Positions 14,051-62,864 of a stretch of 64,000 nt of DNA are shown here, one piece after another (within the stretch, counting starts at the first letter, position 1; the number at the start of each line of letters is the position of its first letter). The stretch lies in the NCBI GenBank assembly GCA_000004985.1, contig GG738847.1; one strand, given 5' to 3'. The notes under the pieces are model-generated. The model ran no database searches, had not been told where the DNA came from, and saw only the letters and a list, made by a program, of their open reading frames with translations. A program made the position numbers and the translations under genes. Source of the stretch: Naegleria gruberi. Its lineage: Eukaryota.

Positions 14051-14070
14051 TTCATGGCTCGCCACGTTTA

Positions 14071-14141: not shown

Positions 14142-14337
14142 AGCACATTTATGATATTTCGATACGAATAATTAACTGGATTGGAACATAAAAGCACACG
14201 ACATTCTTGTTACATATTGAAAAGTAGTGTAGTATCGTCTTCATTTCCCCAATACTCCAAATTGGTAAAATATTTAGTATGAACAACCGTTTCGAATAAA
14301 TTTCTTGCTTAATCACTGATTCAACAAAATTCGGAAA

Positions 14338-14951: not shown

Positions 14952-16510
14952 ATGTGCTTTGGAAATTCAGAGAGCAAGAAGCCAGCTACCACCCAACCTA
15001 CACAACCTACACAGCCAGTAGCAGCAGCTAAACCACCTAAAAAGATTCTTCTCGTAGGTGCTGGTGATTCTGGAAAGAGTAAGTAATTATACAAAATGTA
15101 TTGATATGATTCATCACAATTATTGTTTATTCTCTCCACCAAACTTTCTCATGTATTAATTTTGCTCCTTGGTATTGATGATTCACTGAATATGTTTACG
15201 TGATGATACCACAACCTTCTACTATACTTTTTTTGGAAATTTTTGCAATATAATGATAATCATCCTACTATTGACACTTGTTTGCTGTTGTGCATGTGGT
15301 CATGATAATGATATTCTGTTCCTTGATGATGCGAATCGAAACTTTCCCTCCAAATCTTTTCCGTAAATTTTACATATTCATGAAAAATGGCTCAATTTGA
15401 AATGGTGGCCCATGTATGATGAATGTGCTATTCGTACTACTATTTTGATCACAATGCTAATATTGTTGTTGTTGTTGTTATTATTGATGAATGATATGAT
15501 ATTCATCATAATAATAATATTATTGTTATCAAATAATATATAGGTACCATCTTTAAACAAATGAGATTAATCTATAATAATGGATTTACAACTGATGAAA
15601 AGGCTAAAGTTAGACCAATGATCTATGAGAACATTCTCCGTAACATGATGGTTCTTATTCAAGCTACCAAGACACTTTCGCTTCAAATTTCTACAGAAGA
15701 AAATAGAGAACGTGCCGAAAAGATTGAAAGTTTAGAACAAAAGATTCTTCTTGCTCCAGACAGAGTTTGGGATTCTAATTTGGCTCAAGATATTGCTGAA
15801 TTGTGGAAGGAACCAGCCATTCTTCAAGCCATGTCGAGAAGAAACGAATTCCAAATTGAAGATTCTGCTTCATACTACTTTGATAACTTGGAAAGAATTG
15901 GTCTTTCTGATTATATGCCAAGTGAAGAAGATGTCGTCAGAGCTAGAATTAAGACAACTGGTCTTATTGAACAACCATTTACTTTCAAGAATCTTCCATT
16001 CTGTATGATCGACGTTGGTAAGTATTCCGAGTTTATTGAGATATTCTAACAATAATAATAGGTGGTCAAAGAACCGAACGTAAAAAGTGGATTCACCACT
16101 TCCAAGGAGTTGATAGTATCTTGTTTGTTTGTTCATTGAGTGAATTTGACCAAAAATGTTACGAAGATGATACAACTAACAGAATGAAGGAAAGTTTACA
16201 ACTCTTTGCTGATTACATCAACTCAAAGTGGTTTGCCGATACTTTAGTTTATTTGCTTTTCAACAAACACGACTTGTTCTTGAGAAAGATTGAAAATGGT
16301 GCCAGATTAGTTGATACATTCGAAGATTATAAAGGACCAGAAAATGATGGAGAAGCTGCTAAAGATTTTATCAAGGAAACTTACAAGGAAAAGGATACTG
16401 AAAACAGACTCAGAAATGTCTTCTTTGTTACTGCTTTGGATAAAGCCAATCTGAAGGAACGTCTGGAAGAAATTGTTGCTGACATGATCTCTGCTGAGAA
16501 CGATGTCTAA
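14952..16510 (+). CDS. Heterotrimeric G-protein alpha subunit (349 aa). Exons 14952..15078, 15544..16017, 16062..16510. Introns 15079..15543 (GTAAGT..TAG) and 16018..16061 (GTAAGT..TAG, 44 nt).
   Basis: KILLVGAGDSGKS|TIFKQMRLIY (P-loop), DVG|GQRTERKKWIHHFQGVDSILFV (switch II), LLFNKHDLF (NKxD), TALD (TCAT-like). Splice phases 1 and 1 are consistent, and the frames match track ORFs 15561.. and 16121... Confidence 0.85.
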
Positions 16511-19433: not shown

Positions 19434-22400
19434 TCACATCCACATTTCCTTTACAAGTCTTGACATGCCTTTTTCAAATTCTAATAAGAATATTTCCTCT
19501 GGAGTTTTACCTTCGTATTCATTGACAATGATAGGCTGTGGTGGTTCTTCATGTGTAACATTTACAGGAGTAGTTGTCTCAGTAAGTGGGTCATCCTCAG
19601 AATCTTCATCATCAGAAAGTTCAATTACTCTTTGTTCAACAACTGAAGAATTAGCATTATGGCCCTGTTGTTGGGAGGAAGGTTCTGACTTCTTATTGTC
19701 AACTGGTTCTTGTGTTTTGTTTTTGGACTTCTTTGCATCTTGTTGCTGTTTTTTCTTATTCTTGCTCTTGGAACCTTTCTTATTCTTCTTATTTTTCTTC
19801 TTTGGGTCTTCCTTTGGTGCTGTTGGCTGATCTTCTTTCTTTGTGGAATCACCTCTCAACAAATGTGAAATATCCTTCACTATTAATGGTTCATTATAAA
19901 CATTCTTTTGTGGTTTAGGTGGAACAGTATTTGTTGGCTTTGGAGAAGTAATTTTCTTATCATCCACTTGTTGATTATTCTTGCCATTGGCAGATGTACC
20001 CTTCTTGTCTTGGGACATGCCGACGATTCCAATACCAAGTATACCATTCATCAATTTAGAATAAAAGTCCTCATTAAAATCATTTGGAAGTTCTCCCTTC
20101 TTTTTCATTTCCATAAATCTCATAGTTTCCTCCCTAATTATTTCTTCTCTACTATTTCCATTTGATGATGGTTGTTGTGGTGGTTTAATTGATTTGATAG
20201 GTTCTGTCTGGATTGGTTTTGGTGGTTCAGAAACATCATGCCTAGAATCTAAGAAATTCAAAATCTTAAACTTGGTAAATACAAATTCACTAATATTGTC
20301 ACCATAGTCATTCAAGGTGATGTAAAATGTCCTAGCTTTTGCACTGACATCTCTCAGTGCCTCAAATTTACTATTAAATATAATATCTGTTAAAATTTCT
20401 TCACCCTTGTTCTTTTCAAATCTCTTTCTTCCACTCTCAAATCCCAATAATCCAGTCATTGTATTAATTGAATTGTATTGAAGCTCAATCAAGCTCATGT
20501 CAATTCCTGGCTTTCCAAAGGGACTATTAGGATTGGGTACCTTTTTAATAATATCCAATAAAAGCTCCAAATATCCTTTTGATATCAGTGTATTATTCAC
20601 TTGTTCCGAAATTTGTTTTAGTAAGAGAGGTTTTCCCCAACATTCAGGATTTTGACAACTATTACCAATGGTAATAATGGCAAAATTTTTAGCTTCCACA
20701 TCAATAATTTGATGGGAAAGCTTATACAATGCAATTAGTGTCTTTTCATCAGAAACTATTGCTTCCTTGACATCAAAATTCTCCACTGAAAGGTATGCAT
20801 AACATTGGGCAATATATACAGCTTTGACAACTGGCATTCGTTGAACAGCCAATGATCTAGAGACTTGTAGTAATATTGGAGATAGAGCCACAAGTCCATT
20901 CATTTCATAAATAGTTCTGCTAATATCTGAAGAGCCTCCTCTTGCAATAGAAGCAAGAGCAGAAACAGAGGCATCCAAAAGGTCACATAATTGATGATCG
21001 CACTCTCCAATGTCAAGAATTATATAATCGATCAAGGAAAGTTGTTGAATGATTTGTCTTAGAGCATCGCCATCCTCATATTGCACAATTCTTCTCCTGA
21101 GTGAACAATCAGTATCCACACTACACAAATCAGTTACTGCTCTTGTTGAGAAGAGTTTCAATTCTTGATCATCCCACAAACACAGAGAATCCAATATACT
21201 ATCAATACCATTTAAAATTAGAGATCGTTCCTCCTCTTCCTTGAATATTTCCTCCAGAACACTCTTGTTTTCCTTCTTATTTTGTATGTCTATTTTATCA
21301 AAATCTTCTGACATGGCCCTAGAGCATTCATTTACTGCACTAGCAATATAATCTACGAGTAATACTGCGCCCATACTCCTACAATTTATATCAGTGGGAG
21401 ATGAGGCAAGACAATAAATGTCCAAAATATTTAATCCAAAATCATTCTCATCATTTACAAGATCTTCGTCGTAATCGGTAAAGTTTTCAGAATTTTGAAA
21501 TTCCATCTCATTGGATATTTCTTCCATTGAAGGTTTATAACCAAAAACTTCTGCACATTTTTTCTTCTCATACTCCACAATAGATTTAGCATAATAATCA
21601 CAATATTTACAAATATTAACTACTGATTGTTCCAAGGCATCCAAATCACTTTTGGTTTTGTTTTGTTTCTTTGACATTTCATTAATATGATATGATGTTC
21701 CATGTAGAGTTCTCAGGCTATCAAAAACATCCTCCTTACTTCCCAAAAGTAATGTAAAGTCAATATCACACTTGTGTGAATGTCTTCCATTATTATTTTG
21801 ATAATTTTTTTCCTGGGAATCCATTTGTGAATTGATACTGACTTGTTCTAAAAGTGCTGTGAAATTCATATATGCTTCCTTATATTTCTTCATGCATATA
21901 AGAGCATGTCCTTTAATTATATAAGCCTTTTATAATTATTTTGATGAATTTTAAATTGATTGAATAAATATGAATATTAAATATTAATATAATACTTACT
22001 GAATGATAGGAAGAATTTTGTCGCAGAACTGAATCACAATCCACAACTGCTTTAGAATATACATGATGTCCGATAAATGCTATGGCTCTCAAAATATACA
22101 ATGTAAAGGTACAAGGAGAAAGTGGAAGAGAACTTGAAGAACAAGAAATATCATGAAAGCCCAGAGATGAGTGTAAATCCTGCCTATGTTGGTCATCATC
22201 AAAAAGTGTTGATTCCAATATAAAAGGAGGTTCCTGTGTTTGACAATTTTGTAGATCATCCAAGACTCCTCCTTCTTCATCATCCTTCACTATGGTAACA
22301 TATAAATTTTGTTTCAAACCGAGAGAGGTTGTAAAACATCCTATAGCAATTTCATACTTTTGATGATGAAGAAATGAAATTCCTTTAGTGTAGCCTGCAA

Positions 22401-22716
22401 TTATCTTTTTCAATGCAAACTTTTTTCGTTGTTCAAATATTGTGTTTGGTGTGGAATTATCCATTATATTCTGTTGGTCCATATTATCTGTTGATGATGA
22501 CACTACTAGTGATGATGAAGTTTCTATCATTTCTCGAGAAGGTGATGATGAATTTGCCTTTTCATGTTTGGCATTACTATGATTTTGTTGTGTAGTATTA
22601 TTATTATTATTTGATGATGTACTATTCTTTCGTTTTGGTGTTTGCTTTTTCGATTTCTTCTTATTTGCATCACCTTTTTGTTTTGATGATGACTTGGAGT
22701 CGGAATTGGATGGCAT
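19434..22716 (-). CDS. TPR-like/armadillo-like protein of about 1080 aa. Exons 22000..22716 (ATG at 22716) and 19434..21926. Intron 21927..21999 (GTAAGT...AAG, 73 nt). The ORF track split it into two ORFs.
   Basis: The upstream ORF runs straight into a GTAAGT donor after ...RQNSSYHS. The acceptor restores the frame into AYIIKGHALICMKKYKEAYMNFTALLEQ, completing a TPR-like helix pair. The C-terminus is a K-rich basic tail. Confidence 0.68.
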
Positions 22717-36800: not shown

Positions 36801-37480
36801 AGATTATCAATTGAAGCATGTCTTGAGAGTTGGACATCCAAATGGTCAATAATGAGTCTTCCTTCTTCACTATTTGGAAACTTAAGAACCACCTCCTCAC
36901 TCCCCTTTACCACCAGGGTTGGTGGATTCACTTCGTTTGTTTGTGCAGCAAACCATCCATTCTCAAAGCAATAAATATTGCCTCCCTCAACTTGTAAAAG
37001 TGGCAAGTTGGAATCTGATGATGAAAATGTAAAATCGCATGGAGTGTCCATATATTGAGAGTAGGTTTTCCTTGCTGATGAATAAAGTTGTGTGGAGAGC
37101 TGGTCTCCATAGTGGAAAGAACCTCCGTTTTCAGTTAAGAATTGATGAGGAGATAATAAGCCTATCGACGAAACACTTGCTCCACTCACTTTTAGCGAAC
37201 AAGTTGAATCAACATGAACAAAATTTTGACCATTAACAAAGACATATTCTGCTAATGGGTCTTCTACTTTTGATGAACAAAACTTGCCACCAAATCCTGA
37301 ATAACAAAGACAAGTATCTTGATATGTACAAAAACCATGTCCTGAACAGACCCTACTTTTTTCACTCGAGTCTATTCCATTACATGTATATGAAAAAACT
37401 AGTCCTAGATTTAATAATAATAATAATAAAACGGTCGCTAACTTTGCCATTAAGGCTGGCCAGCGCAAATTCCTTGTCAT
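27875..37480 (-). CDS. Giant single-pass membrane receptor (about 3200 aa): signal peptide, EGF-like modules, REJ/PKD-like region, GPS motif, one TM, and about 1400-aa repetitive cytoplasmic tail. Single exon.
   Basis: The ORF track start at 37561 is TTG. Real ATGs lie at 37480 (MTRNLRWPALMAKLATVLLLLLLNLGLVFS) and 37450. EGF-like: CSGHGFCTYQDTCLCYSGFGGKFC, CNTCKNGYYGEKC, CKCADGYVGNNCD. GPS: VKCKCNHLTNVFVM, directly before the TM IIIICVAGGILLVCCVFTITFICVAV. Confidence 0.8.
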   Translation of the reverse strand: MTRNLRWPALMAKLATVLLLLLLNLGLVFSYTCNGIDSSEKSRVCSGHGFCTYQDTCLCYSGFGGKFCSSKVEDPLAEYVFVNGQNFVHVDSTCSLKVSGASVSSIGLLSPHQFLTENGGSFHYGDQLSTQLYSSARKTYSQYMDTPCDFTFSSSDSNLPLLQVEGGNIYCFENGWFAAQTNEVNPPTLVVKGSEEVVLKFPNSEEGRLIIDHLDVQLSRHASIDNLVFVAKSSEIRGGVFKGKLFTDELSSITSTQIDGKVYIVGQGGNILLKGVSFTPRRTTRRYNSKEITACSKETTCSSHGECDVSDSCVCYSNADEGYWTGASCNTCKNGYYGEKCATSAAGPATITDDFRGISFVFHSPSSFTGSELSCSKVLHPSDLSGDLYGTSASVRCFYLDKSTYRFLIKFGSIDFSLQSGVSNLRINAGAFDNSTSSNTITYLSFVINPPAVIATPIATIRLPAVDTFSSCDTILVDGSQSYSVDGKALTYNWAVVDSSSLSVVSTSFANSAFITLDSSLAAGSYKMRLQVRSEYLSKDSIIVYSSTFVKSTKVLPILTIAKDQYTLTKYSNQFPLLINKFVEHSSCRANGDTIVVEWSQLSGPSVAYNVDSYNDLFIPKLTTFGSNTYTFKVSAYYALDQSTKTSSIITLNTQSPNLILNLMKYEAKSDYTTVQVDYSDPESIFNTLSSETWTWTCLDNTSPRLLTLLSAISNTKKTYFTVSTSLFDIIPRSVDISLQIVKSDMRSITKGITIYFQTIPPVVNFVTIEPKSSVIAPGKNFVSQIFVTSFSDKTNSTWSLNGVTLYSGIIQSGSSQTVKVDSSKLTEGSSNVLRVVVNDGTISQSTQLTYNFQVGISPKVCNCDISPTSGSAMESQFQFYCLNCKSSINNIDFRFGYIDDRANLKVSLYNKGNFFSTKLPGPTLSNKVTVFFDIIDVTTESTTTIYKDITVTLPAVASNVTLVLEKSQGFNSLSDSYLTSGAFGKSFYQSSATSKIDSVLLNSALNGLDLLSTAKECTNGIQTTSGACKCADGYVGNNCDVHVTEYDNIQMDKSTLLRSMLQVFNGTNVVVDQDYVIMVSIAIDSLITNYPYLSNITISQALTTLDKFMDDALLVSDLGIPIELYNLLIKCLNNVYHYIYDRNGGGYSNGIKVFRIMKKFSLLRAREINVNYPEYVRGSFYHSTVGKSTLYNYQATLLQVESSTSISTSLFSPQTTIITKPFAHALIVSDDIIGLNKKLNTPLKTSLPSTYKLSSAVSPIVSLAITDNPVSFNGEGIEYIIPVNTTNIVHDLTQQSFSYVVQSRIFYCANFEDSAASLATFSTTNCTYTSLNSSLVKCKCNHLTNVFVMETTTVTYVSYIIIICVAGGILLVCCVFTITFICVAVCCCYYKKKYQQDVVVKKKVVYVGKRMKDGTIMLVAKAVDTDIEMLEKNGGKKVVTTTTNTTTNSSDSQYASNQNMLEGVARQTTSAHAYRKEGGTFVSTEEMQNRQMITETKEGGHSVVNYEHMRSMADIKDTGSYRTLTSRSNSEEEKREYSRGSSFKGSHYSSSHGSRQAINYAREQHEHVPFMKSHSETNRGYEYHQTVDEMNQESTTLDDYHNEDFNEYSRTVSNSNAQYYTNKINTYGSRNQSSKSSRTESPFSSKGSREKHELVAVSAAQNRTNSNAGYSNNYSTYETTRTYTDENGQTRTETIRGVNDNGKVNVEKVFSQNGHSEVVSGNGYDVYPNAMNNDRGVTNASRNLHTGEYSSQEHHGDVRAIKTGYSTSYSTYESSNNNGQILTQEHLGDARLKTGGFYTNYSTYESSNTVSDNNGTRTEIIKGVNDNGKVNIEKSVYENDKKAGVVKQEYVEPSFMIEEEQAVSNHAKNTAPIAQEEFNSTFITKQSTSDDYFAPPFLTELSEKEKESKCSSRRSYASARRSTGRSRVTSSYGETQHYDQEALLHVEEKAVEETPQETIVEEKIVRQRNEFSPSPRDTVEHVSYEVEEKIDEPVYLPKVVSPKPRETAIHHVPKRVEEKLIDEPRHVPKVVSPPKPSKPLIKQKSQYIEENEVEEHIEEPRFIRKDSAKYVVEKEQEAVEESVEDQLFATEDYDEEKIVTSKNSYEPKQEIHQTMHTSSKNILSLPEHFTEDKLNGSRTRSSSYSSFESSKTVSDNNGTRTEVVKEVNDNGNINRRSSYDERIHSEEKHSQIVEEEKIVKQQPKFIPQQETIVEKVVKQEPSYVVEEKVVKQKPQFIPPKPKKPIKVQSKNNQQEENYVVEKKAKKNDSESSNYSTYETKRTVTDENGTRTEIVKGVNNNGKVNVEKSTLVNGKRTNVERSEDYDESYNNQEAVVNNRSKNNQFSEHNIIKKETRRTITDERGTRTEITIEINDNGKITTETKTHYHNKNEQAKNNNNGKINFYERKSKNNLLQQQKDVNQERMQANERIVKAVNNRARNGSPPGKIVKRQEAKPVKMANPSRSISAPETKKTKSEPQLIKKPSPKTEESKHVLQKVASNSKNEVKSRIEAKSKTEAKKKTEAKKVKRTPPENANQNRKSVESTETKSETKTVVNKSSNDRNIDITKGANTTAVKLETKTVETEQVVNNKSGQNNNYSSYETVKTTVTDNNGSRSEIVKTVNDNGRVNIEKSVIHNQSSMTDMNDQHEGYYEKVVHNNSSNYVNTDQAARVTEVVNRSSVPPPQTNSQPVIHQPIVPVIPKPIMTQQVVSQPIPQPIPERVVNDSYINEEYVENRDAYRMQEKYMHEQSQLSSYNNQTDSSYVVDNNKKNDIVYYNERSIVQDRNNIVTGQANLNLRVESVNAMNENRMKNSSTEIDHSNYGKSTTGTYETTYKTYYKNDGTQEQPLPISSGPVWRVDGDFVGISNNNKATVVESRVVENRQRNEFAQSNNNSYETPPRVVPVNDYISPPRFDPPVYEQPQKPEIVRPVSIVVENQKPKVASTYVARNEVAENRLKNVSSEIDYSGYGKASTVGIYETTYKTYFNDGSQEPVVRPDLPNTLNIGMNNKISSTQMQSSSYQSNSQANNNLRVNNSYVETRNNAYSESRNNGYSEARNNASYIDSRTNYVSNPYPGDNQATFKNYPPTVEPANNRAYPRGEIKPKPERFPVGQLPREPYVNNGQISDDPMLHHANIVKHKDGGYYIKVQIKEDPKEGKKSVFVVPTEQESKRRVNPIPLQMVDIYSINENQARQVNLNQEQQ
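28530..32480 (-). repeat. Intragenic tandem protein repeats in the cytoplasmic tail of the giant receptor (at least 8 degenerate units of about 35-40 aa)
   Basis: Repeated units: NYSTYETKRTVTDENGTRTEIVKGVNNNGKVNVEKS; YSTYESSNTVSDNNGTRTEIIKGVNDNGKVNIEKS; YSSYETVKTTVTDNNGSRSEIVKTVNDNGRVNIEKS; and terminal YETTYKTY(Y/F)xNDG(T/S)QE units. Confidence 0.6.
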
Positions 37481-38858
37481 TTTTTTGTTTGCTGACCGTA
37501 ACAAACTAAGCTTTAAACTTTCACAAGACTTTGTGAACAAATTAAGGTGGAGCGTTTCCAAACGAGGCCTCTTCAGTTACTTCTGCACTCGATAACTTAG
37601 TTTCCTTCTCCGATCCCAATACTTCCTTAAGGGAATTGATGCCTTGTTAGATTTTCGGTTACTGATATTCTCGCTGTGTTTTTTTGCCGCAACAATCAAT
37701 TCATCACTTCCCTTAATTTTTTCCTCTTTGTAGTTTAACCAACGCCAATAATAATGTAAATAGGTTGTGTAATCATTGACTGAATAGGAAACTTGAGACA
37801 TTGGCTAAAAAACTTAATGAAATATATTTCATACCTCACCTAGAAATCAAGGCCTAAAAGCTAAGTTGACTTCTAATTAGAAGGCAGGAGTGATTTTTTT
37901 TTTTCTCTGGGGTTTTCTATTGAAAATCAAATTAGAAGTGGAAATAAATGGTAATCTTGCTCAAACTCAACATAACAAACTGGGAAATTCTTTAACTGGC
38001 ATTGATGAAAAAAGTTCTGATGAACTATTAAGTTTCCACCTTTCTTCAAGTCATTTCGGTATAGAATTCATTCTCTTTACTAAACTATTTTGAACAAACA
38101 CTTTATGGAAGTGCCGCTCAATAAAAAGTACCTCAATCATTACTAACAACAAACAAAATAACTTTTCCATCTTTGTTGATAACAATTACTAATAATATGA
38201 TCAATAAAACTGTTCCATCCTTAATACTTCAAAGGGTCAATATAAATTACCAAAGAAACCATTTTGTATTGATGCGGATCTTTTAACACTATTAACAGAT
38301 TTTATCTACCCTTTCCTATGCGCGTCATGGTTCAACATTGAGAAAAACTCATCACCAATAACGACAAATAAGAATTGACGATGCTTTTAAATACAAAAGT
38401 GGCTCCTCTAGCTGATTGTGTCTGCTTTCACCCAACAAGTCCAAGTTACTTGGCGTTTTTGTTTGCATCTCCCTGATGTACTTGTTGTTAACTTGCGTAG
38501 AATAATTAGAGAAAAAAAACAACGCAACTTTGCAGGTATTGAAGGTATAAATCACAACAACAAGCCTTTGAAAAATTAATTGATACTCTGCGGTTTGGAT
38601 TCAACCTCAAATACCAATCATACAACAATAGTACGAGAGTGTGTGAACGCATTGTTTAAACTTGTTTCAAGTATCTTCATAGTCACCGTTTAATTCTCTC
38701 TTCGAATATATTAGCATTTTGTGATCAAACAAGCCTTCCGAAATTTACCCTCTTTGATCATCACAACCACCACATTTTGTATACTACTGCTACCAATCGC
38801 TAATACTTCCATCAAATCTCCACACAATTGTAACATATAACTCTCCTAGGAATACACC

Positions 38859-41244: not shown

Positions 41245-44177
41245 ATGAAGTCAGCAACAATAACATCATCTTCGCTGTTGATGATGGCAACTTTGCTTTT
41301 CATAATAATATCAAGTGCAAGTGCCATCCTACAAAGTGAAGCCAATACATTTGATTGGATGAAGGAAAATGTAGGAAGAGTAAAATTGGTAGAATCTGGA
41401 TTTTCCAACAAGGCTCTTTCTGTTGTAGCCACAAACAAGGCTGTTTTGGCAGGTTTGAGTATTAGAACAGGCGAGTTAAGTATGTACAAAATTATTTATT
41501 GAATAGTAGAATCAACACACTTACTATGAAAATTGTTATTTAAAATAGTTTGGAGAAGAGTTTTTAATGATGATGAAAATATTGACAGATTATATTCAAT
41601 CGGGAATGATAAAATAGCATCTCTTTCATCTTCATCATCCAAGAGATATGTTAGAGTATGGAATGCTTTAGATGGTAGTCTTTTATATGATATTAATTCC
41701 CTCTCATCTTCATCAGATATTTTGTCTTTAGGAGAAAAGGTAATCATCTCTACAGGAAGTACCCTCCTTTTGAAGGATATCAAGACTGGAGCTGAAAAGT
41801 GGAAGGTATCCTCATCAAACGAAAGGTAAGTATACATTCCGGATAGTGTTAGTAATTTATTGTTAAAAGGGTTGTCTTTGCCAAGTTAGTTTTGCTCGAA
41901 AAGAATGTCAATGCTATTCAAGCTGAATTGAGTGCAGATAGTAATACTATTTCAAAACTTGTTGTAAAGGCTTTAAATACTGATAGTGGAGCTTTGACTG
42001 TGAAGAGTACCATTGATTTGTCATCTTTCTCTCTCACTGTTGAAAGTTTGAATGATTATACTGGTGAACAAGTTATTTTCAAAACAACAAACAAACTTAT
42101 TTATTTCAATGTGAATACTTCTGAATCTAAGGAGGAAGACATTTCTCAACCAGAAAAGATTTCATCATCCACAAATTTGGACGGAACTACTTATCATGCT
42201 TCTATTCAAGAACAAACAGCTACAACTATTAAGATCGTTGTTAAAAAAGCTAATGATGTTTTAGTACAATATGATGCTCCATTGGACATTAAAAAGCACG
42301 GAAAGGCTCAATCTATTTTCTTCCAATTATTCAAGAATTTGGAAAGTAATAACAATCAATTGATTCATAGATTTATTGTAGTTACTGAGGATGATTCTAT
42401 TATTGGATTTAAAGAAAATCAACAACTTTGGAAGAGAGAAGAATCACTTGCTTCTGTTGATGAAATTAAATTTGTTGAATTCCCAGTTCATCACACTGTT
42501 AAATCAGGTAATGGCGTTGCTAGTTTTGGAAACAGAATTTCAACTCAAATTGTTCAAGCTACTGACCTTATTCAAAAGGCTATTGATTATGTGAATGCAC
42601 TTTCTGGTAAGAAGAATAATGGCGAGGGTGGAGATGAAAGCCTCAGATTTGTTCAAGATAGACTTGGTTTCCAAAAGCTTGTAATTCTCAAATCCAAGAC
42701 TGGTAAGATTTTGGCTCTTCACACCTCTGATGGCCATCTTGTTTGGTCTCTCTTCATCAAGGGTGAACTTGAGAAACATATTGATACTTCTTCTACTCTT
42801 AAGATTAACCTATTCATTACCAAGGATCAAGTTCTTAAAGATGATATTAAGATTAGATCACAAGCTACCATCATTGTTTCTGACAATAAGAAGAGTGTTG
42901 CCATTGTTATTGATGCTTTGAATGGACAGGTTTTGACAGTCACTCCACTTCCTTATGTATACACTGATGCTGTTTTACTTCCAACTACAAGCGAAGATAG
43001 AGTTCATCCACTTCTTTTGGTGGATACTGAACTTAATGTTCATATCTTCCCAGAAACTAAAGAAATTATCCAAAATGTCAAGTCATTCCCACTCAATATT
43101 CATTTCCACACCAGGGATGCTGCTCAAGGAAAGCTTTCAGGATACATTTGGAATGTCAATCAAACCAAGTTGACTAACACTTGGTCAGTTTCTCTCAACT
43201 CTCCAATAGTTGCTTTCGCATCTCCACAAGCTCTCTTGAATGAGAATATCTATACTGGCATTATTGTAACTGCTTCTGGTAATGTATTGTACAAGTATCT
43301 TAATCCATCCATGTTTGCTGTTGCTACTATTGAAAAGGAAGCTACTGAATATCCAGTTTTGCGTGTTTATGTTATTGACGGTACTACAGGTGAAGTTCTC
43401 CACCAAATTCATAACGAAGATGCTGTTGGACCTGTTAATATGGTTTTGGATGAAAATACTCTTGTTTATCAATATACGAATGCTAAACAAATGAGACACG
43501 AGTTGACCACTGTTGAATTATTTAACAATGGTACTGATTTCCAAAAGAAAGGTTTCGGATCAATTTTAATGGAAAAGTTATTCGGAAGCAAAGAAGCTGG
43601 AGTTTTCACATCATTCGGATATAGTAAGCCAACTTCTAGAAAGAATACTTATATTTTACCATTCGGTGTAAGATCTATTGGCGTTACAAAGACCACTATT
43701 GGTGTCACCAACAAACAATTCATTTGTAAGTATATTTTACTCTGAGAAATCAATTATTAACAATAATTAATAGTGTCCCTTACTAATGACCAAATTTATT
43801 TGGTTGACAAGAAGATAATCGATGCAAGAAGACCAAGAAATCCAACTGCTGCATCAGATGAAATTGCCGAAGGTTTAATGCCATATAACCCATACATTCC
43901 ATTTGTTTCACTCAATGTTCCAACCTATAACAAACCAGTTAGCAGAGTTAAACACATTCAAACTAGTCCATCAATTCTTGAATCAACTACATTGATGGCC
44001 TCCTCTGGATTGGATGTCTTCTTCACTAGGTTGTCACCATCTAAAAAGTTTGACATTCTCAATGAAGATTTCAGTTATGCCATGTTGATCATTTCTACCT
44101 CTGCACTTTTCATTTCAGTTTTTGTTGCCAAATACTTAGCCAACAAGAAGGAGGTCCAATTGAAGTGGAGCATGTAA
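41245..44177 (+). CDS. EMC1: ER membrane protein complex subunit 1 (EMC1), 923 aa. Exons 41245..41479, 41549..41825, 41870..43725, 43774..44177. Introns of 69, 44 and 48 nt.
   Basis: Signal peptide, then ILQSEANTFDWMKENVGRVKLV (compare EMC1 [22 protein letters not shown]), then TGEL|IWRRV. Internal VYVIDGTTGEVLHQIHNEDAVGPVNMVLDENTLVYQYTNAKQMRHELTTVELF matches the EMC1 PQQ-like region. C-terminal FTRLSPSKKFDILNEDFSYAMLIISTSALFISVFVAKYLANKK is the DUF1620/TM end. All splice phases are consistent with the track ORF frames. Confidence 0.8.
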
Positions 44178-52263: not shown

Positions 52264-53524
52264 TTAATCTACATCATCATTTTCAATAAAATCAGCCTTC
52301 TGTTCCTCCAATTCTAATAATCTCATTTGTTCCTCAATCTCGCTCTGTGTGAGAGAAATATCATCGTCTATTTCATCTTCATTCTCATCGTGATGCACAT
52401 GAACATCATCATCGTCAATCTCAACTTCATAATCATCATCTTGATGTTCCTCTTCTTCCTCTTTGAGTTTTTCTAATTGCTTCTTTTGTTGTTCAATTTG
52501 GAAGTTACGTAAGATTTCTTCTTGTTCCGCATCTGCTTTTTGTTTTCTTTTAAGGTCTTCAGCTTCTTCTTCTTTTCTCTTCTTTTCCTCTTCCTCATAT
52601 GCTGCTTTAGAAAGAGCAATGGCTCTCTCCAATTCATCCTCCTCTCTATTTCTAAAACTATTATTATACATGAACATTGAAGGTGGTTCATACTCTTCTT
52701 CCTCCTCATCACATTTTTCCATTAATGCTTGTGCTTCCTTGTTTTCTGGTTGCTCTTTTAACACAATTGCCAAGTAGGTCTTTGCTCTTTGAAACTCTTT
52801 ATAAAAGTAGAAGCATTTAGCCATAATGTAGACAGATTTAGTATTTTGTAAAACTCTGTATGCATTCTAAATTTAGGTTAAATGTTTGATCAAAAATAAT
52901 CATCAAGGAATGCAATTAAATAATTAGTGTTGTCACTCCCTACTACTTACTTGGGCACATCTAAATGCTTCACCAACATTTCTCATTTCCAACATTACTA
53001 AAGCAGCATTGTTAAATGTATCACGAACCAGTTCTTCAGCTTGATGAAATTGCTCCCTATTTAAACGATTATTAATAATTTGAAATGTTATCTACTTACT
53101 TTGTAGCAGAGATATTTGTATACTTGTTCTCCTTTAAATTGAACCATACTTCTAGAACCTTGTTATAAAATGGAATAGCCTGAAAATTTCAAATGTCATT
53201 ATCTAAAACAGTTTTACTTTCACTTACATCTTCATAACTATTTTTTTTAAACATGGCATTACCGGCCTCCTTGTTCTCTCTTATTCTTGCGATTAACTCT
53301 TCAAAACTAGTTGATCATCACAAGTTTTCCGAATTTTGATCCAATTTATTCCATTAAAAAACAACTACAAACCTTGAAAATTGTACAACTGATTCTACAT
53401 TTTCATCGGCATCTAATTCGGTTCCGTCGTATTCTGGTTCCTTGTGTTGCTCAGCCTGTTGATCACTGGTGGCACCGTTTGGTGTTGAATTATTGTTGGT
53501 GGCTGAATCTTCGGTTGATGTCAT
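52264..53524 (-). CDS. TPR-repeat protein (TTC1-like, 3 TPRs) with acidic C-terminus containing a UIM. Exons 53373..53524, 53228..53306, 53100..53179, 52950..53056 (frame problem, see findings), 52264..52866.
   Basis: MTSTEDS...VVQFS|S FEELIARIRENKEAGNAMFKKNSYED|AIPFYNKVLEVW...|...FNNAALVMLEMR NVGEAFRCAQ|NAYRVLQNTKSVYIMAKCFYFYKEFQRAKTYLAIVLKEQPENKEAQ. The UIM-like motif is EEDELERAIALSKAAYEEEE. Introns are 66, 48, 43 and 83 nt with GTTTGT or GTAAGT donors. Confidence 0.65.
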
Positions 53525-53815
53525 TTTTTTATAACAATCAAGTTCCACTGTGCATTCAACAAGCAGGTTAGTCTAGACCTTCTCTTCATCAAATAATAAG
53601 AATAGACTAATGTTCATCAAAAATGTTAGTTGAGTGTTGTTAGAATAGACAAGTGTTGGTGTAATTTTGATATTAGTATAAAGTTTCATCCCATCATCAG
53701 CATCAACATGAGAATAATCTATTAAATTTTTGAATATTGTGTGATGATGCAAATTTTAAAGTACAAAAAAATATTTGAATATTGACCCAACAACAAGCAA
53801 CAACAATACTTAACA

Positions 53816-56146
53816 ATGGGTTTTGATAAGAATACTACCGTGTGTGTTCGGAATTTAAGTCCTGAAGTTACTCAAAAGATAGGTTTGATTTTAAATTCAT
53901 CATTTTCTTACAGACAATGTTTACGATTTGGAAAAGTTCTTCCGATTGCGAGTAGGTGATGTAAAGAAAGTAGTACTTGTTACGGATAAACAAACAGAGA
54001 AGAGCAAGGGATTTGCATTTGTTGAATTGTACGTTTTTACTAATAGTTTTTGATGAATTAAATCTGTGGATAGTCCTATTGCAATTTTGGCAAGTGAATG
54101 TTTGAGCAAGTGTAATGGAGCTTCTTTGAATGAAAAGACAATTACTGTTAGACCATATACCGATAAGAAGGAATCTTTGGATAAAAAGAAATCAACCAAG
54201 GAAAAGAAGGAAAAGAAACCAAAAGAAAATGATGTCTTGAGCAAGGATGATCCATTCTATGTTAGTTCAAGTGACGATGAAGATGAAGAAGAAGAAGATA
54301 AACCAGATAAGAATGGAATTTTCCCTAACAGAGTTTTAGTGGTTGCCAGACTTGCAAAATCTATGAATTGGGATCAAGCTATGCAAGCTCTCCAAGAAAA
54401 GTTCAGTAAAATTGGTAAACTGAATAATATCAGAATGCCAAAACAGGGAAGGTTAGTAATTGAATTGTTAAAAATTATACTGAACTCTAATTTCTATTCA
54501 GTAATCACAAGGGATATGCTTTTATCGAATTTAGAAAGGCAAAACATGCCAAGAGAGCTTTGGATTGGGCCAAAAAGAATACAAAGATGAGTGTAGCTTG
54601 GAAAGTTGACCGTGATCAATATGTCAAAAAGAAGCAAGACGCTTTCCTTAAAAAGAAGGAAGAAGAATTCGATAAGGAACAAGAAAAATTCCAAAAACAC
54701 ATGAAAAAGTATACTGAAGGAGAAAAATCTGACGATGAAGAGGATGATGATATTGAGGAACCTGAGGAATATTTTGGAGAGAAGGAAAAGGAATCTAAGA
54801 GTAGTTTGGATGAATTATTTGATGGAGAGGAAAAGGAAGAATCCGATGATGAAAAGGATGATGCTGACGCAGATGAGGACAATCAAGATGATGATGTCGA
54901 AGAGGGTGATGAATCTGATGAGGAGGATCAAGATGATGACATGAGTGTTGGCGAAGAAGATGCTGATGAACAAATGGAAGATGCCGAAAAACCAGAAGGA
55001 GAAGAAGAATCTAAGGAAAAGAAGGAGCAAACAGCTGCTGACTTTAAAAAGACAGTTTTCGTCCAAAATTTACCATTCCAAGCTGGTGTAGATGAAATTA
55101 AGGCCATATTTGAAAAGCACTATGGTTTGGTTGCCTATGTTGCCATTGTTGCCAAGACTGATGGTTTATCAAGTGGTAAAGCTTTCGTCAAATTCAAGAG
55201 ATTCAAGGATGCCAAGAAATGTATCAGAGAAGCCGAAGGAAATCTCATTGAAAAACAACCAGAAAAGAAGAAGGCCTCTGAAAAGATTTCCAAAGAACCA
55301 GAAGAAGAAGAGGAAAGAAATGTTGGTGAAGTTCTTTTGGATGGTAGAAAGTTGCTCATTGCTAGAGCCATCTCTAAGCAATCATCCCAAGAAATTAACA
55401 AGAAGAAGGAAAAGAAGGACGATCCAAGAAATTTGAGATTGGCCAAAATTGGTTTCATTGCTGCCAACAGTCCAGAGGCTAAGGACATGCCAGCTGAACA
55501 CTTGAAGAAGATTCAAAAGAATTGGGCTGAAAAGAATACCAAGCTCAATAATCCAATCTACCACATTTCTCCAACCAGACTTGCTATTCAAAACTTGCCA
55601 AAATCATGGACTGACAAGGATTTGAAGAATCTCGTTTTGGATAAGATTAAATATGATGAAGCTTTGGGTAAAGGAAAGAAACCAAAATTGATTCAAGTCA
55701 AGATTGCTAAGGATAAGGATAGCAAGCAAAGCAAGGGATTCGGCTTTGTAGAATTTGAAAAACATGAAGCTGCTTTGTGTGCTCTCGAAAGACTTAACAA
55801 TAATCCAAAAATTCTCAATCCAAGAGTCAAAGATAATAAGGTTGCCTCAGCAGCTCGTCTCATTGTCGAATTTGCAGTTGAAAATACTATGAAATTGACC
55901 ATTCTCCGAAGGCATCAAACTAACTCTCACAGAGAGAAGGACGATTCTAACATGATATCAGAATTTATTAAGAATAGATACGATCAATCATCCTCATCTT
56001 CAGCTGGTCGTTCCAGACCACCATCACGTGGAGGTAATTACAATAGAAACAATGATAGAAATCAAAAGAGACAAAGAGGTGGTAATGATAACAAACGAAA
56101 ACGTCAAGATAATAATTTTAGAGGTGCAAAGAAGACCAAAAAATAA
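53816..56146 (+). CDS. RNA-binding protein with two RRM domains plus acidic and K/R-rich regions (734 aa). Exons 53816..53882, 53914..54028, 54074..54451, 54502..56146. Introns of 31, 45 and 50 nt.
   Basis: RRM1 is split by an intron: TVCVRNLSPEVTQKI|DNVYDLEKFFRLRVGDVKKVVLVTDKQTEKSKGFAFVEF. A further RRM is KTVFVQNLPFQAGVDEIKAIF...SSGKAFVKF, and a third RRM-like module ends at SKGFGFVEFEKHEAA. The introns carry a TACTAAT-like branch motif. Confidence 0.72.
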
Positions 56147-56241
56147 AATTACTATTTAAAGAAGATACTTATTTGTGGGCAGAAAGAGATTTTCCTTGTT
56201 TTGAAAATTTGCTCAAACTGTAAAAAAAAGTTTGGTTTCAA

Positions 56242-57658
56242 ATGAGCACTCAACCAACATCAACATTACTTTCACCAAGTCTTTCAAATGATAACCTCCT
56301 TCTCGAACCATCTGAAACCTTGTGTGTAGTGACAGGAATCAATGGTTTCATTGCAAGACATTTGGCTTTCCAATTGTTATGTAAGGGATATCGTGTTGTT
56401 GGTACTATTCGACCACCTCCCAATGAAGAATCATTCCCAAGCACTGATGCCTACATTCTCTCCAAACTTCCCTACATTAATCATTGGTTACAAATCTTTG
56501 AAAATCAACTCTCCATTCAAGTAATTGACTTTACTCAGGATGAAAATGCCAAGACACTTGAGAAAATCTTTGAAGGTGCCTATTGTGTCTTTCACACTGC
56601 AAGTCCTGTCTTTTTCAACTCAGAACCACCATCTGAGGAGGAGGCAGAGGAAATGTACTACAAACCAGCAGTGAATGGAACAAGATTGGTATTGGAGGCT
56701 TGTGAAACAAGTAAAGTCACTCGAGTTGTATTAACCAGTAGTACTGCAACATTGTTCAATCCTTACAATCCTCCAAGGTATGTTATTTTCCTATTTAGTC
56801 AATCTCAAATTAACAAACTTGACAATGAATTTTACACATAATCATCATGATAAAATTGTGTTGATTAGAAGTGGCATTGTATCAGAATGTGATTGGAATC
56901 AATCTAGTAAACTAACAGATGCAATGGGTGCCTACAGAATTTCAAAAGTCAAAGCTGAAAGATTTGCCTGGGAATTTTGTAGATATTTAACTTCTTCACA
57001 CAAGATTCAATTGGTAACTGTTCTACCAACCTTTGTAATTGGACCTCCATTCCCCAACAAGGTATTCGATCAAGAAGAATCCAATCAAATTCTCTGCGAA
57101 AAGGTTGAGAAAATGATTCAAGATTTGACAAGCTCTGAAGAATCGATTGATGTTTTGAAGAAATCTGTTCTAACTTCTTCCATTCTTGAAATTTATAAGA
57201 TTCTCCTTCAAAATGAAGATACCTCCATTGTATTCAACTCTGATAATGTTGGAATTGTTGATGTAAGAGATGTTGCCAATTGTCACATTCTAGCAATGGA
57301 AAAAAGACAAGCCAAAGGAAACAGATTCATTTGTTGTCACTCCACAAGAAACTATGTTGAAACTTTCAATAGAATTGCACAAGTTTTCAGAGAAGACTTT
57401 CATGTTGAGAATGTTAACTTTCTTCCAATTTATGATTCCAACTCAACTGGTGAGTTTTCAATCCAAATGAAAAAGATTGATGGATCCAAAGCTGAGAAAA
57501 CTCTTGGATTGAAATATACTCCATTCGAAAGGACGATTAGAGACATGTGTCAATCATTTGCTGAATTGAAATTTGTAAACTCAAGACCTTCAAGAGAAGA
57601 TGAAAAAACCTCCCAAAGAGAAAGATATACAGTCATGACGGATACACTCTTTCCTTAG
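56242..57658 (+). CDS. NAD(P)-dependent extended SDR (GRE2 / cinnamoyl-CoA reductase-like aldehyde reductase), 441 aa. Exons 56242..56777 and 56869..57658. Intron 56778..56868 (GTATGT...TAG).
   Basis: Rossmann motif VVTGINGFIARHL, then CVFHTASPV, then catalytic YxxxK (YRISKVKAE). The acceptor is chosen at the first AG; an AG three nt downstream is equally frame-compatible. Confidence 0.78.
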
Positions 57659-61215: not shown

Positions 61216-62864
61216 TTAGAAAAGTGGAATACCAGCTTCAGCATCACTTTCGACACCACATTCATCAGAACCTCTCAAAATCTTAAAGTAACCATTGTCT
61301 CCCCAAGTTGTTGACCAACTGTTCTTAATCTTCCAATATGGAGTACCATTTTCAACACCCCAACCAACCATCAAGACAGCATGATTGACAACTTCAAAGT
61401 GTGGAATCATTTCATCTTCAGAGAGACCTTGAGCCTTCAATTCTTCAGCAGTAACGTGCTTGTAAACACCGTGCTTGTAGTTTCTCAAATCTGGATAAAC
61501 TTCGAACCCAATAGCAAGTGGACCATTTTGATAAATTTCGTGCATCATGGACAATTCGTGAGAGTTACCATAATAACCACCAACAAAGTAATAGTTTGAA
61601 GAATGGAGACGTTGTTGTCTATTGACTGGACATTGATTGCTGCACTTTCCGAGATCGTGTCCTTGATATGGGTCACAACTTTCAACAGTAAGACCATAAT
61701 CCATAGCATATTTACCAACGAGGAATGGGAAACCACCATCACATCCTTGAGAATAAGCAGAACAATCAACAATGTCTTGTGGTGAGTAAACTGGGACTTG
61801 AGTAAGGTTGGAAGGAATTCTAACTCTACTGCCAAACATGTCACTTGAACTGAAAGCGTAGCAAGATCCGCATTGCTTTTTCCATATTTGGTAATTCAAT
61901 TAAATAAATGTCCATATTTGAATAAATAAATAAAAAATAAATAAAAAAAATAAATAAAAAATAATTAAAAAAAACATACCTCTTGATTTCTGACTGGGAC
62001 AACAAAGTCACGTCCATTAACATTAGTCCAATCGAATTCAGTTGGGAGAGAAGCTCTCAACTTTTCAGCATCTTGAGATTCGAATTGACCAGTCTTACCA
62101 TTGAAAAGGGTAACCTTATCAGCATTCATAGCTCTGAGCTTGGCTTGTTGCTTCTTCAAGTTTCTAGTCTTTTGATAACTTCTTCTGTATGAACCAGTAA
62201 TTCTCTTCAATTCAGCAAAGGTCATACCTTCGAATTGCTTGTGAGCAGTAGCCTTCCATGTGGATTGAGCCTTATTCAATGCTTGAATATATCTGTCATT
62301 GTTAACAAAGACGGTGGAGTGTTCAAAATCTCTCTTAATCTTTTCTTCAGCATGGTCAATGGAGTGAACAGTCTTAGCTTGGAAGCTTGATGACTTGAAT
62401 CCCTTGAAACAACCCCACTTCTTAGCTGGAATAGAGTTATCGTGATAAGTACCAACAAAGGTTTGGTCACAGTGAGAAGTAACAATGGTGTGATTGTTAA
62501 CATTAGCTTCAGTATAGTTGAAGAATGCAAAGTACTTCAATCCGTCAACTTTAATTTCCATACCTTGGTCATAAACCATAGTGAAATGACCACGGACAGT
62601 TGGTTTACCCATCAAGATGGCAATATTTGGTTCAGAGAGTTTAATAGTAACAGTGTCGAGCTTGGTTGTTGGCAATTGCTTCTTATCAATAGAACATTGA
62701 TTATAAATAACTTGGTTATCATAGTTTGGTTCGGTCTTGTAGAAAGTCCAGGTACCGTAAACATTTTCATACAAGCAGTGGACTGGAATGTCGGCCAAGG
62801 CTAATTGGCAAGCAACACCCAAGAAGAAAACTGCTGCGAGAATCTTGGCGAATTGTGATTTCAT
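61216..62864 (-). CDS. CTSC: Cathepsin C / dipeptidyl peptidase I (514 aa): signal peptide, exclusion domain and papain-family catalytic domain. Exons 61980..62864 and 61216..61875. Intron 61876..61979 (GTATGT...AAG, 104 nt, AT-rich).
   Basis: Exclusion domain DIPVHCLYENVYGTWTFY (compare DTPANCTYLDLLGTWVFQ). Junction DFVVPVRNQE|QCGSCYAFSSS (active-site Cys context). Papain motifs follow: catalytic His region NHAVLMVGWG and YWKIKNSWSTTWGDNGYFKILRG. Confidence 0.88.
61900..61975. repeat. Simple A-rich repeat (AAATAAA-like units) inside the cathepsin C intron
   Basis: aataaataaataaaaaataaataaaaaaaataaataaaaaataattaaaaaaaa. Confidence 0.6.

What the first reader, a model, noticed from the sequence alone, without database searches (positions are those of the whole stretch)
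53816..54502. Ultra-short spliceosomal introns (31-50 nt) with fungal-type branch motifs are common in this genome
Hand-derived models give introns of 31, 45 and 50 nt in the RRM gene; 44 nt in the G-alpha gene; 69, 44 and 48 nt in EMC1; 43-83 nt in the TPR/UIM gene; and 61-104 nt elsewhere. One intron is 465 nt (G-alpha intron 1). Donors are GTAAGT or GTATGT, but also GTACGT, GTTAGT and Entamoeba-like GTTTGT/GTTTGA. Several introns have TACTAAT or TTCTAAC 5-20 nt upstream of the AG. The 31-nt intron (53883..53913, GTTTGA...TTCTTACAG) is near the lower limit for spliceosomal introns. The ORF track ignores all of these, so many genes appear fragmented or truncated.
Basis: partly seen in the sequence, partly recalled or inferred. 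Interest (0 to 1): 0.5.

Follow-up and report, generated by a model that had tools for sequence, protein, structure and literature searches.

The report
Short Naegleria introns; one probably AT-AC
The window is Naegleria gruberi DNA whose many 44-50-base introns are real but already annotated, while the headline 31-base intron is probably a misreading of a rare 46-base AT-AC intron that the public annotations of three Naegleria species each handle differently.

Summary
The window is Naegleria gruberi NEG-M (exact RefSeq protein matches). They are real, ordinary U2-type GT-AG introns and already known. Short introns are typical of Heterolobosea.

The highlighted 31-nt intron (53883-53913) is not supported. 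N. lovaniensis and N. fowleri share the same 5' sequence, but they have no AG that could keep the conserved codons DLEKFFR. RefSeq uses a different GT-AG intron in each of the three species (97, 73 and 115 nt), and each one deletes conserved parts of RRM1.

Only one solution fits all three species. It is an AT-AC intron, AAG|ATAGGT...YAC|GAY (window 53879-53924, 46 nt). It introduces no indel relative to RBM28/Nop4 homologues. It also has the usual local geometry, with CTYAC 11-14 nt before the 3' end.

Published surveys found no evidence of a minor spliceosome in Discoba or Excavata, so this is most likely a U2-type AT-AC intron. I found no transcript evidence, so RT-PCR or RNA-seq is needed.

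The parts
53816..56146 (+). RBM28/Nop4-like gene with four RRMs (RefSeq XP_002682360.1 / D2V126, 712 aa as annotated; 729 aa in the model proposed here)
   Evidence: Pfam RRM_1 x4. Homologues are RBM28/Nop4. The RefSeq model was rebuilt exactly from exons 53816-53839, 53937-54028, 54074-54451 and 54502-56146.
53816..53878 (+). Exon 1 in the proposed model (MGFDKNTTVCVRNLSPEVTQK, contains RNP2)
   Evidence: Conserved as coding sequence in N. lovaniensis and N. fowleri: 48/63 and 46/63 nt identical, with no indels in this stretch.
53879..53924 (+). Proposed intron 1: 46-nt AT-AC intron, ATAGGTTTGATTT...CTTAC...GTTTAC
   Evidence: This is the only boundary pair of a known class that keeps DLEKFF and is present at the homologous position in all three species (L001 3064-3112, L002 2212-2263). 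RRM_1 scores 65.0 bits over the full profile, against 51.6, 46.9 and 42.5 bits for the GT-AG alternatives. There is no indel relative to homologues.
53883..53913 (+).
   Evidence: In frame in N. gruberi only. N. lovaniensis and N. fowleri have no AG between the shared 5' sequence and the DLEKFF codons. It needs a 5-residue insertion (IDNVY) that no homologue has.
53840..53936 (+). Intron 1 as annotated in RefSeq N. gruberi (97 nt, GTGTGT..GAAAAG), probably wrong
   Evidence: Exact rebuild of XP_002682360.1. It deletes VCVRNLSPEVTQKDLEK, which includes RNP2. RRM_1 is only partial (profile 22-70, 42.5 bits).
53907..53911 (+). CTTAC, candidate branch site of intron 1 (A at 53910, 14 nt before the AC 3' end)
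   Evidence: CTCAC sits 11 nt before the AC end in the other two species. The geometry matches other local short introns, where the branch A is 11-13 nt from the 3' end. Only 3 nt lie before the AG of the 31-nt reading.
53925..54028 (+). Exon 2 in the proposed model (DLEKFFRLRVGDVKK...KGFAFVE + 2 nt; helix alpha1, strand beta2, RNP1)
   Evidence: The first 27 nt are 20/27 identical to N. lovaniensis, 7/9 aa identical, with no indel and only synonymous changes in the first 7 codons. This level of conservation is typical of exons.
54029..54073 (+). Intron 2, 45 nt, GTACGT..ATAG, phase 2
   Evidence: Two in-frame stops. Same position and phase in N. lovaniensis (175 nt) and N. fowleri. Present in RefSeq.
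54074..54451 (+). Exon 3
54452..54501 (+). Intron 3, 50 nt, GTTAGT..CTCTAAT..TCAG, phase 2
   Evidence: The frame shifts across it. The junction QG|S.HKGYAF is the same in both other species. Present in RefSeq. CTAAT lies 11 nt from the 3' end.
54502..56146 (+). Exon 4 with stop codon
15079..15543 (+). G-alpha intron 1, 465 nt, GTAAGT..ATAG
   Evidence: The model equals XP_002682353.1 exactly. The sibling-species contig L004 is colinear across the junction.
16018..16061 (+). G-alpha intron 2, 44 nt, GTAAGT..TTCTAAC..ATAG (splits DV|GGQ)
   Evidence: CTAAC lies 12 nt from the 3' end.
41480..41548 (+). EMC1 intron 1, 69 nt, GTATGT
   Evidence: The model equals XP_002682358.1 exactly.
41826..41869 (+). 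EMC1 intron 2, 44 nt, GTAAGT
43726..43773 (+). EMC1 intron 3, 48 nt, GTAAGT..ATTAAC..AATAG
21927..21999 (-). TPR-gene intron, 73 nt, GTAAGT..AAAAG (the only intron in the RefSeq model)
   Evidence: The two-exon model equals XP_002682572.1 exactly.

Best explanation
The window is nuclear DNA of Naegleria gruberi NEG-M. Its genes carry ordinary major-spliceosome (U2-type) introns, and many sit just above a lower length bound of about 44 nt. These have GTAAGT-like donors and often a CTAAC/CTAAT/TTAAC branch site 11-14 nt from the 3' end. They are already in the public annotation.

The first intron of the RBM28/Nop4-like RRM gene is the exception. I read it as a 46-nt AT-AC intron (53879-53924), with boundaries AAG|ATAGGTTTGATTT...CTTAC...GTTTAC|GAT.

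Inferred mechanism:
- The 5' site /AUAGGU pairs with U1/U6 like a normal /GUAAGU site, except at +1.
- CUUAC serves as the branch site.
- Because the intron starts with A, the second step uses a 3' end that finishes in C rather than an AG. This follows the known A(+1)-C(-1) covariation of U2-type 'AT-AC II' introns.

The product is ...VRNLSPEVTQK|DLEKFFRLRVGDV..., a complete canonical RRM1. Gene predictors restricted to GT/GC-AG cannot find this intron, which would explain why RefSeq models in N. gruberi, N. lovaniensis and N. fowleri each use a different GT-AG intron that damages the domain.

Shown: organism identity, introns 2 and 3, the other genes' introns, cross-species conservation, and domain scores.
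Inferred: use of the AT-AC junction, and the spliceosome type.
For: Organism and ordinary introns:
- Exact RefSeq N. gruberi matches.
- Eight introns validated by exact protein identity with RefSeq (465, 44, 73, 69, 44, 48, 45, 50 nt).
- The G-alpha junctions are also matched by a colinear sibling-species contig.

AT-AC intron:
1. In N. lovaniensis and N. fowleri the codons DLEKFFRNQ follow the identical 5' sequence AAGATAGGTTTGATTT, but no AG lies between them. An enumeration of all in-frame GT-AG, GC-AG and AT-AC pairs shows that no GT/GC-AG pair keeps DLEKFF there; the AT-AC pair at the homologous position is the only boundary pair shared by all three species.
2. The 27 nt after the AC boundary are conserved at the level typical of exons: 20/27 nt and 7/9 aa, with no indel and synonymous changes. 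The interior has several indels, including a net 2-nt indel between two N. gruberi strains.
3. Pfam RRM_1 scores for the AT-AC model are full length: 65.0 bits (N. gruberi), 69.4 (N. lovaniensis) and 65.3 (N. fowleri).
4. Alignment with RBM28/Nop4 homologues from animals, fungi and protists shows zero indel for the AT-AC model.
5. /ATAGGT matches the local donor consensus GTAAGT at +2, +3, +5 and +6. It also matches the published AT-AC II consensus /ATAAGT (PMC5029451; PMC1557818). GTTTGA matches GTAAGT only at +1, +2 and +5.
6. CTYAC sits 11-14 nt before the AC end in all three species. That is the same geometry as validated local introns.
Against: - I found no transcript evidence for any version of intron 1.
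- U2-type AT-AC introns are extremely rare where they have been surveyed: 0.003-0.008% of introns in human, mouse and fly (PMC1557818). The prior is therefore low.
- In this AT-rich sequence in-frame AT...AC pairs are frequent (4-10 per species), so the mere existence of such a pair means little.
- N. gruberi itself has a canonical GT-AG alternative (31 nt) that still gives a full-length, lower-scoring RRM.
- The comparison rests on effectively two lineages: N. gruberi against the closely related pair N. lovaniensis and N. fowleri.
- The conserved TAC before the boundary could in principle be a Tyr codon.
Confidence: 0.65

Rival explanations
1. gruberi. A 31-nt GT-AG intron (53883-53913, GTTTGA..ACAG) is spliced and gives ...TQKIDNVYDLEKFF... 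N. gruberi would then have introns well below 40 nt.
For: The intron is in frame and uses canonical dinucleotides. It yields a full-length RRM_1 match (51.6 bits, profile 1-70). The N. fowleri authors set the mapper's minimum intron length to 30 bp, judging from predicted genes (PMC8296547).
Against: There is no equivalent AG in N. lovaniensis or N. fowleri, although the downstream codons are conserved. It scores 13 bits less than the AT-AC model. It requires a 5-residue insertion seen in no homologue. GTTTGA is a poor match to the local donor consensus. The conserved CTTAC lies only 3 nt from this AG, so another branch site about 12-17 nt from the donor would be needed. It would be 13 nt shorter than every validated intron in the window.
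Confidence: 0.12
2. One of the longer GT-AG introns is real, and RRM1 of this protein is truncated or degenerate in Naegleria. Candidates are RefSeq 53840-53936 (97 nt), 53883-53952/53955 (70 or 73 nt, analogous to the N. lovaniensis annotation), or the 115-nt type annotated in N. fowleri.
For: These are the published models. All use GT-AG. The 70/73-nt type has positional counterparts in all three species.
Against: The three RefSeq models are mutually inconsistent. Each removes sequence that is conserved as an open, indel-free, synonymously varying reading frame across species. Each leaves only a partial RRM_1 match lacking beta1 and/or alpha1 (34-47 bits). An RRM without alpha1 or RNP2 would not be expected to fold; this is an inference from the known RRM fold.
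Confidence: 0.1
3. Intron 1 is an AT-AC intron removed by a minor (U12-type) spliceosome that has gone unrecognised in Naegleria.
For: AT-AC termini. The 5' end is unusually conserved to +13 (ATAGGTTTGATTT identical in three species), which recalls the extended 5' consensus of U12-type introns. The branch-like element lies 11-14 nt from the 3' end.
Against: The 5' site does not match /ATATCCTT beyond the first three bases. The branch candidates TTCTTAC and GGCTCAC match TCCTTAAC poorly. Two pan-eukaryote surveys found no evidence of minor introns or minor snRNAs in Discoba or Excavata (PMC10639083; PMC11347168). No minor snRNA lies in the window, though that is uninformative for the whole genome.
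Confidence: 0.04

Closest known systems
U2-type AT-AC ('AT-AC II') introns, e.g. human SCN4A/SCN5A (Sheth et al. 2006, PMC1557818)
   Same: AT and AC termini. The 5' site looks like a normal U2-type donor except for A at +1 (/ATAGGT here, consensus /ATAAGT). The exon context is normal (AAG| ... |G). The boundaries are conserved between species. The lineage has no evidence of a minor spliceosome.
   Different: This would be, as far as my searches show, an unreported case in Heterolobosea. The intron is very short (46-52 nt). The first 13 intron bases are invariant across the genus, which is more than the U1/U6 pairing region. Splicing has not been demonstrated.
U12-type AT-AC introns (minor spliceosome)
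   Same: The terminal dinucleotides, the short distance from branch site to 3' end, and the extended conservation at the 5' end.
   Different: The defining /ATATCCTT donor and TCCTTAAC branch motifs are not present. Discoba are reported to lack minor introns and minor snRNAs (PMC10639083, PMC11347168).
Short-intron regime of compact protist and fungal genomes (N. fowleri and N. gruberi annotations, PMC8296547; Acrasis kona, predicted introns 9-95 bp, PMC11589745)
   Same: The 44-50-nt GT-AG introns of the window, with GTAAGT/GTATGT donors and often a strong CTAAC-like branch motif close to the 3' end, belong here. Seven of them are identical to RefSeq annotation.
   Different: Nothing material. 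They are not 'fungal-type': the organism is a heterolobosean amoeba.
Truly ultra-short introns (about 25 nt in Paramecium, PMC5014332; medians of 22-27 nt in myxozoans, PMC13644364)
   Different: All validated introns in the window are at least 44 nt long, and the 31-nt candidate is not supported by comparison between species.

Membership tests
U2-type GT-AG spliceosomal introns (short class) | GT...AG termini that interrupt an otherwise continuous, homologous coding sequence | tested here: met
   RRM introns 2 and 3, G-alpha introns 1 and 2, EMC1 introns 1-3 and the TPR intron. The spliced products equal RefSeq proteins exactly. The junctions are conserved in two other Naegleria species.
U2-type GT-AG spliceosomal introns (short class) | Removal from mature mRNA | tested here: inconclusive
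   There is indirect support only for G-alpha. A 1360-nt Logan contig of a sibling species is ungapped across both junctions. It could instead be an intronless gene copy. No transcript was found for the RRM gene.
U2-type AT-AC (AT-AC II) introns | AT at the 5' end and AC at the 3' end, at boundaries that restore the reading frame | tested here: met
   Window 53879-53924, L001 3064-3112 and L002 2212-2263. In all three the boundaries join ...T(Q/E)K to DLEKFF.
U2-type AT-AC (AT-AC II) introns | A 5' splice site that matches the U2-type consensus except at +1 (/ATAAGT) | tested here: met
   /ATAGGT matches 5 of 6 positions of /ATAAGT. The local donors are GTAAGT, GTATGT, GTACGT and GTTAGT. The consensus is taken from PMC5029451.
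U2-type AT-AC (AT-AC II) introns | Spliced at these boundaries, by the major spliceosome | not testable with these tools
   This needs junction reads or RT-PCR, and snRNA dependence experiments.
U12-type (minor) introns | 5' splice site /RTATCCTT | tested here: not met
   ATAGGTTT against ATATCCTT: positions +4 to +6 differ.
U12-type (minor) introns | Branch site TCCTTRAY 10-15 nt from the 3' end | tested here: inconclusive
   TTCTTAC (14 nt) in N. gruberi is a partial match. GGCTCAC (11 nt) in the other two species is a poor match.
U12-type (minor) introns | U11, U12, U4atac and U6atac snRNAs present in the genome | not testable with these tools
   Only the 64-kb window could be scanned, and it holds none. 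The literature reports no evidence in Discoba or Excavata.
Ultra-short introns (<35 nt) | An intron shorter than about 35 nt that is actually used | tested here: not met
   The only candidate (31 nt) lacks an orthologous acceptor in two congeners and scores worse than the 46-nt alternative. The shortest validated intron is 44 nt.

The most novel reading that the evidence does not exclude
The AT-AC intron is real, and it belongs to a small hidden class of Naegleria (heterolobosean) AT-AC introns. These would be recognised through a lineage-specific extended 5' element (ATAGGTTTGATTT, invariant across the genus). They would be spliced without a canonical minor spliceosome, and they would be systematically mis-annotated because predictors allow only GT/GC-AG.
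Probability: 0.12. Interest if true: 0.6.

Novelty: new member of a known kind. Interest (0 to 1): 0.33.

Why it matters
Short GT-AG introns in N. gruberi are already annotated and are typical of Heterolobosea.

Re-examining it produced one thing of modest value: a probable AT-AC intron conserved across the genus, in a supergroup where surveys found no evidence of a minor spliceosome.

- If confirmed, it adds a deep-branching lineage to the very few known cases of major-spliceosome AT-AC splicing.
- It corrects the RBM28/Nop4 orthologue models in three RefSeq genomes, including the pathogen N. fowleri.
- It warns that GT/GC-AG-only pipelines silently damage such genes.

Tried and rejected
Transcript evidence for the RRM gene was sought in four ways and not found.
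- Exact look-ups of six full-length N. gruberi, N. lovaniensis and N. fowleri models among 15 billion proteins found none of my models present.
- A homology search with the N-terminal 231 aa returned only genomic exon-3 ORFs.
- A junction-spanning DNA pattern scanned against JGI metagenome contigs gave 0 hits.
- A protein-guided scan of the same collection for further Naegleria loci gave none.

Other attempts that led nowhere:
- Genomic context look-ups for N. gruberi RefSeq proteins are not on record.
- I first concluded that the RRM gene was unannotated in N. gruberi. That was wrong. The RefSeq model was hidden inside a 90% cluster and has a different intron 1.
- Hypothetical non-canonical acceptors in N. 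lovaniensis (introns ending ..CACAT or ..ATAAA) score 57-58 bits but belong to no known boundary class, so I dropped them in favour of AT-AC at 69 bits.
- A shorter AT-AC pairing with the 3' AC at the end of GGCTCAC works in N. lovaniensis but is out of frame in N. fowleri.
- The 13-mer ATAGGTTTGATTT is not recurrent in the window: 3 hits with up to 2 mismatches, against 6.6 expected.
- An Rfam scan found only two tRNAs.
Full report
**Identity of the window.** The sequence is about 35% G+C and gene dense. Two intronless ORFs match RefSeq proteins of Naegleria gruberi NEG-M residue for residue: NAEGRDRAFT_60240 (SepSecS) and NAEGRDRAFT_45841, both on a 941,567-bp scaffold. The 'fungal-type' genome is therefore a heterolobosean amoeba.

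**The gene under the finding.** 53816-56146 (+) encodes a four-RRM protein of the RBM28/Nop4 family.

**Introns 2 and 3 are real and already annotated.**
- Intron 2 (54029-54073) contains two in-frame stops, and the reading frame shifts across intron 3 (54452-54501).
- Both lie at the same codon and phase in N. lovaniensis and N. fowleri, where they are longer (175 nt, and roughly 80 nt by my count). The protein alignment across them is seamless...AFVEF|P.A.LA......MPKQG|S.HKGYAF....
- They are the introns used by RefSeq XP_002682360.1, which I rebuilt exactly.

**Other genes.**
The spliced proteins are identical to XP_002682353.1 and XP_002682358.1.
- A 1360-nt Logan contig from a sibling Naegleria (86% nt, 92% aa identity) is colinear and ungapped across both G-alpha junctions. 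It is most simply a spliced mRNA.
- The TPR gene with a single 73-nt intron equals XP_002682572.1.
- Of the 11 introns I modelled, six are 44-50 nt long and none of the validated ones is shorter than 44 nt.
- CTAAC, CTAAT or TTAAC lies 11-13 nt from the 3' end in three of them. This is the general U2 branch consensus.
- Published figures give a mean intron length of 203 bp for N. gruberi and 126-144 bp for N. fowleri. The N. fowleri authors set the mapper's minimum intron length to 30 bp (PMC8296547). Predicted introns in Acrasis kona are 9-95 bp (PMC11589745).
- This part of the finding is correct but ordinary and already known.

**Intron 1 is the real issue.** Reading the N. lovaniensis and N. 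fowleri DNA shows three things:
- The same exon-1 end and the same following 13 bases, AAG ATAGGTTTGATTT.
- Then 42-45 nt rich in indels.
- Then the codons (TAC) GAC TTG GAA AAG TTC TTT AGA/CGA ..., which read (Y)DLEKFFR. They differ from N. gruberi only by synonymous changes.

There is no AG anywhere between the 5' sequence and those codons.

An exhaustive enumeration of in-frame GT-AG, GC-AG and AT-AC pairs shows that in those two species no GT/GC-AG intron can retain DLEKFF. All three species share an AT-AC pair at the homologous position, AAG|AT...AC|GAY:
- window 53879-53924, 46 nt;
- L001 3064-3112, 49 nt;
- L002 2212-2263, 52 nt.

A second N. gruberi strain from an ENA metagenome (99% identical) carries a net 2-nt indel inside this interval. 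This confirms that the interior is non-coding.

**Why the DLEKFF codons must be exon.** The 27 nt after the AC boundary are 20/27 identical between N. gruberi and N. lovaniensis, with 7/9 residues identical and no indel. This equals exon 1 (48/63) and the rest of exon 2 (57/77). The interior of the interval needs several gaps to align.

**Domain evidence.** Pfam RRM_1 scores for the N-terminus under each model:

| Species | Model | Bits | Profile covered |
|---|---|---|---|
| N. gruberi | AT-AC | 65.0 | 1-70 |
| N. gruberi | reader, 31 nt | 51.6 | 1-70 |
| N. gruberi | 73 nt | 46.9 | 20-70 |
| N. gruberi | RefSeq, 97 nt | 42.5 | 22-70 |
| N. lovaniensis | AT-AC | 69.4 | 2-69 |
| N. lovaniensis | RefSeq | 47.1 | partial |
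| N. fowleri | AT-AC | 65.3 | 2-69 |
| N. fowleri | RefSeq | 34.3 | partial |

Aligned with RBM28/Nop4 RRM1 from animals, fungi and protists, the AT-AC product needs no indel between RNP2 and helix alpha1.

**Splice-signal evidence.**
- Read from 53879, the donor is /ATAGGT. This agrees with the local consensus GTAAGT at +2, +3, +5 and +6, and with the published /ATAAGT consensus of U2-type AT-AC introns (PMC5029451; PMC1557818). It has the usual AAG| exon end.
- Read from 53883, GTTTGA agrees only at +1, +2 and +5.
- A CTYAC element lies 11-14 nt before the AC end in all three species, which is the geometry of the validated short introns. In the 31-nt reading this element is 3 nt from the AG and could not serve as the branch site.

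**Annotation evidence.** RefSeq uses a different GT-AG intron in each species:
- N. gruberi: 97 nt, deleting RNP2.
- N. lovaniensis: 73 nt, deleting alpha1.
- N. fowleri: 115 nt, deleting alpha1 and beta2.

This is what one expects if the true intron is outside the predictors' repertoire.

**Mechanism and class.**
- The inference is major-spliceosome splicing of an AT-AC II intron. A at +1 is tolerated when the last base is C. This rescue is known from yeast, where a G-to-A change at the first intron base is rescued by a G-to-C change at the last (summarised in PMC1557818).
- It is not U12-type. The /ATATCCTT donor is absent, and two surveys found no evidence of minor introns or minor snRNAs in Discoba or Excavata (PMC10639083; PMC11347168).
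- One feature is unexplained. The first 13 intron bases are invariant across the genus, whereas introns 2 and 3 share nothing beyond +6. The motif is not recurrent in the window.

**Caveats.**
- I could find no transcript evidence for any version of intron 1.
- AT...AC pairs are common by chance in AT-rich DNA. The argument therefore rests on positional conservation plus protein homology, from effectively two lineages.
- AT-AC II introns are very rare elsewhere.

**Verdict.** The general observation is true but already known, so it earns low interest. The specific 31-nt claim is probably wrong. The same bases most likely hide a conserved AT-AC intron, a new member of a known rare kind that matters mainly for annotation and for the distribution of non-canonical splicing in deep-branching eukaryotes.

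Noticed in passing
L001 3064-3140 (N. lovaniensis XP_044555250.1) and L002 2212-2330 (N. fowleri XP_044568756.1): Both RefSeq orthologue models use GT-AG introns (73 and 115 nt) that delete conserved RRM1 codons. With the AT-AC intron the proteins would be 681 and 706 aa instead of 673 and 685.
   Followed up: yes
window 53879-53891; L001 3064-3076; L002 2212-2224: The 13 bases ATAGGTTTGATTT are identical in three Naegleria species. This is far more 5' intron conservation than in introns 2 and 3 of the same gene. The motif is not recurrent in the window and remains unexplained.
   Followed up: partly
window 14952-16510 (+): A clear heterotrimeric G-alpha subunit (Pfam G-alpha, motifs GAGDSGKST and DVGGQR) is named 'ARF/SAR family small GTPase' in RefSeq (XP_002682353.1).
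   Followed up: partly
L003 (ENA ERZ929261, PRJEB11402 metagenome contig, 3463 nt) against window 53375-56845: A metagenome contig is 99.0% identical to N. gruberi NEG-M, so an N. gruberi-like amoeba is present in that sample. It carries a net 2-nt indel inside intron 1 and two amino-acid differences in exon 4.
   Followed up: partly
L004 (Logan SRR26109363, 1360 nt): An intron-free G-alpha ORF of a sibling Naegleria species (86% nt, 92% aa identity) with UTR-like flanks. It is probably an assembled mRNA, which shows that Naegleria transcriptomes exist in Logan, although none covered the RRM gene.
   Followed up: partly
window 56242-57658 (+) and 61216-62864 (-): My two-exon models of an epimerase-like gene (91-nt intron 56778-56868) and a cathepsin-C-like gene (104-nt intron 61876-61979) are not exact RefSeq proteins. 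The reference models must differ somewhere, in the start codon or in further introns.
   Followed up: no
window 19434-22716 (-): The RefSeq TPR-gene model (XP_002682572.1, 1069 aa) has only one intron (73 nt).
   Followed up: partly
window 730-802 (+) and 14070-14142 (-): Two tRNA genes: tRNA-Phe (GAA) and tRNA-Gln (TTG).
   Followed up: no
window 27878-37576 (-): A single uninterrupted ORF of 3233 codons. It was not examined.
   Followed up: no
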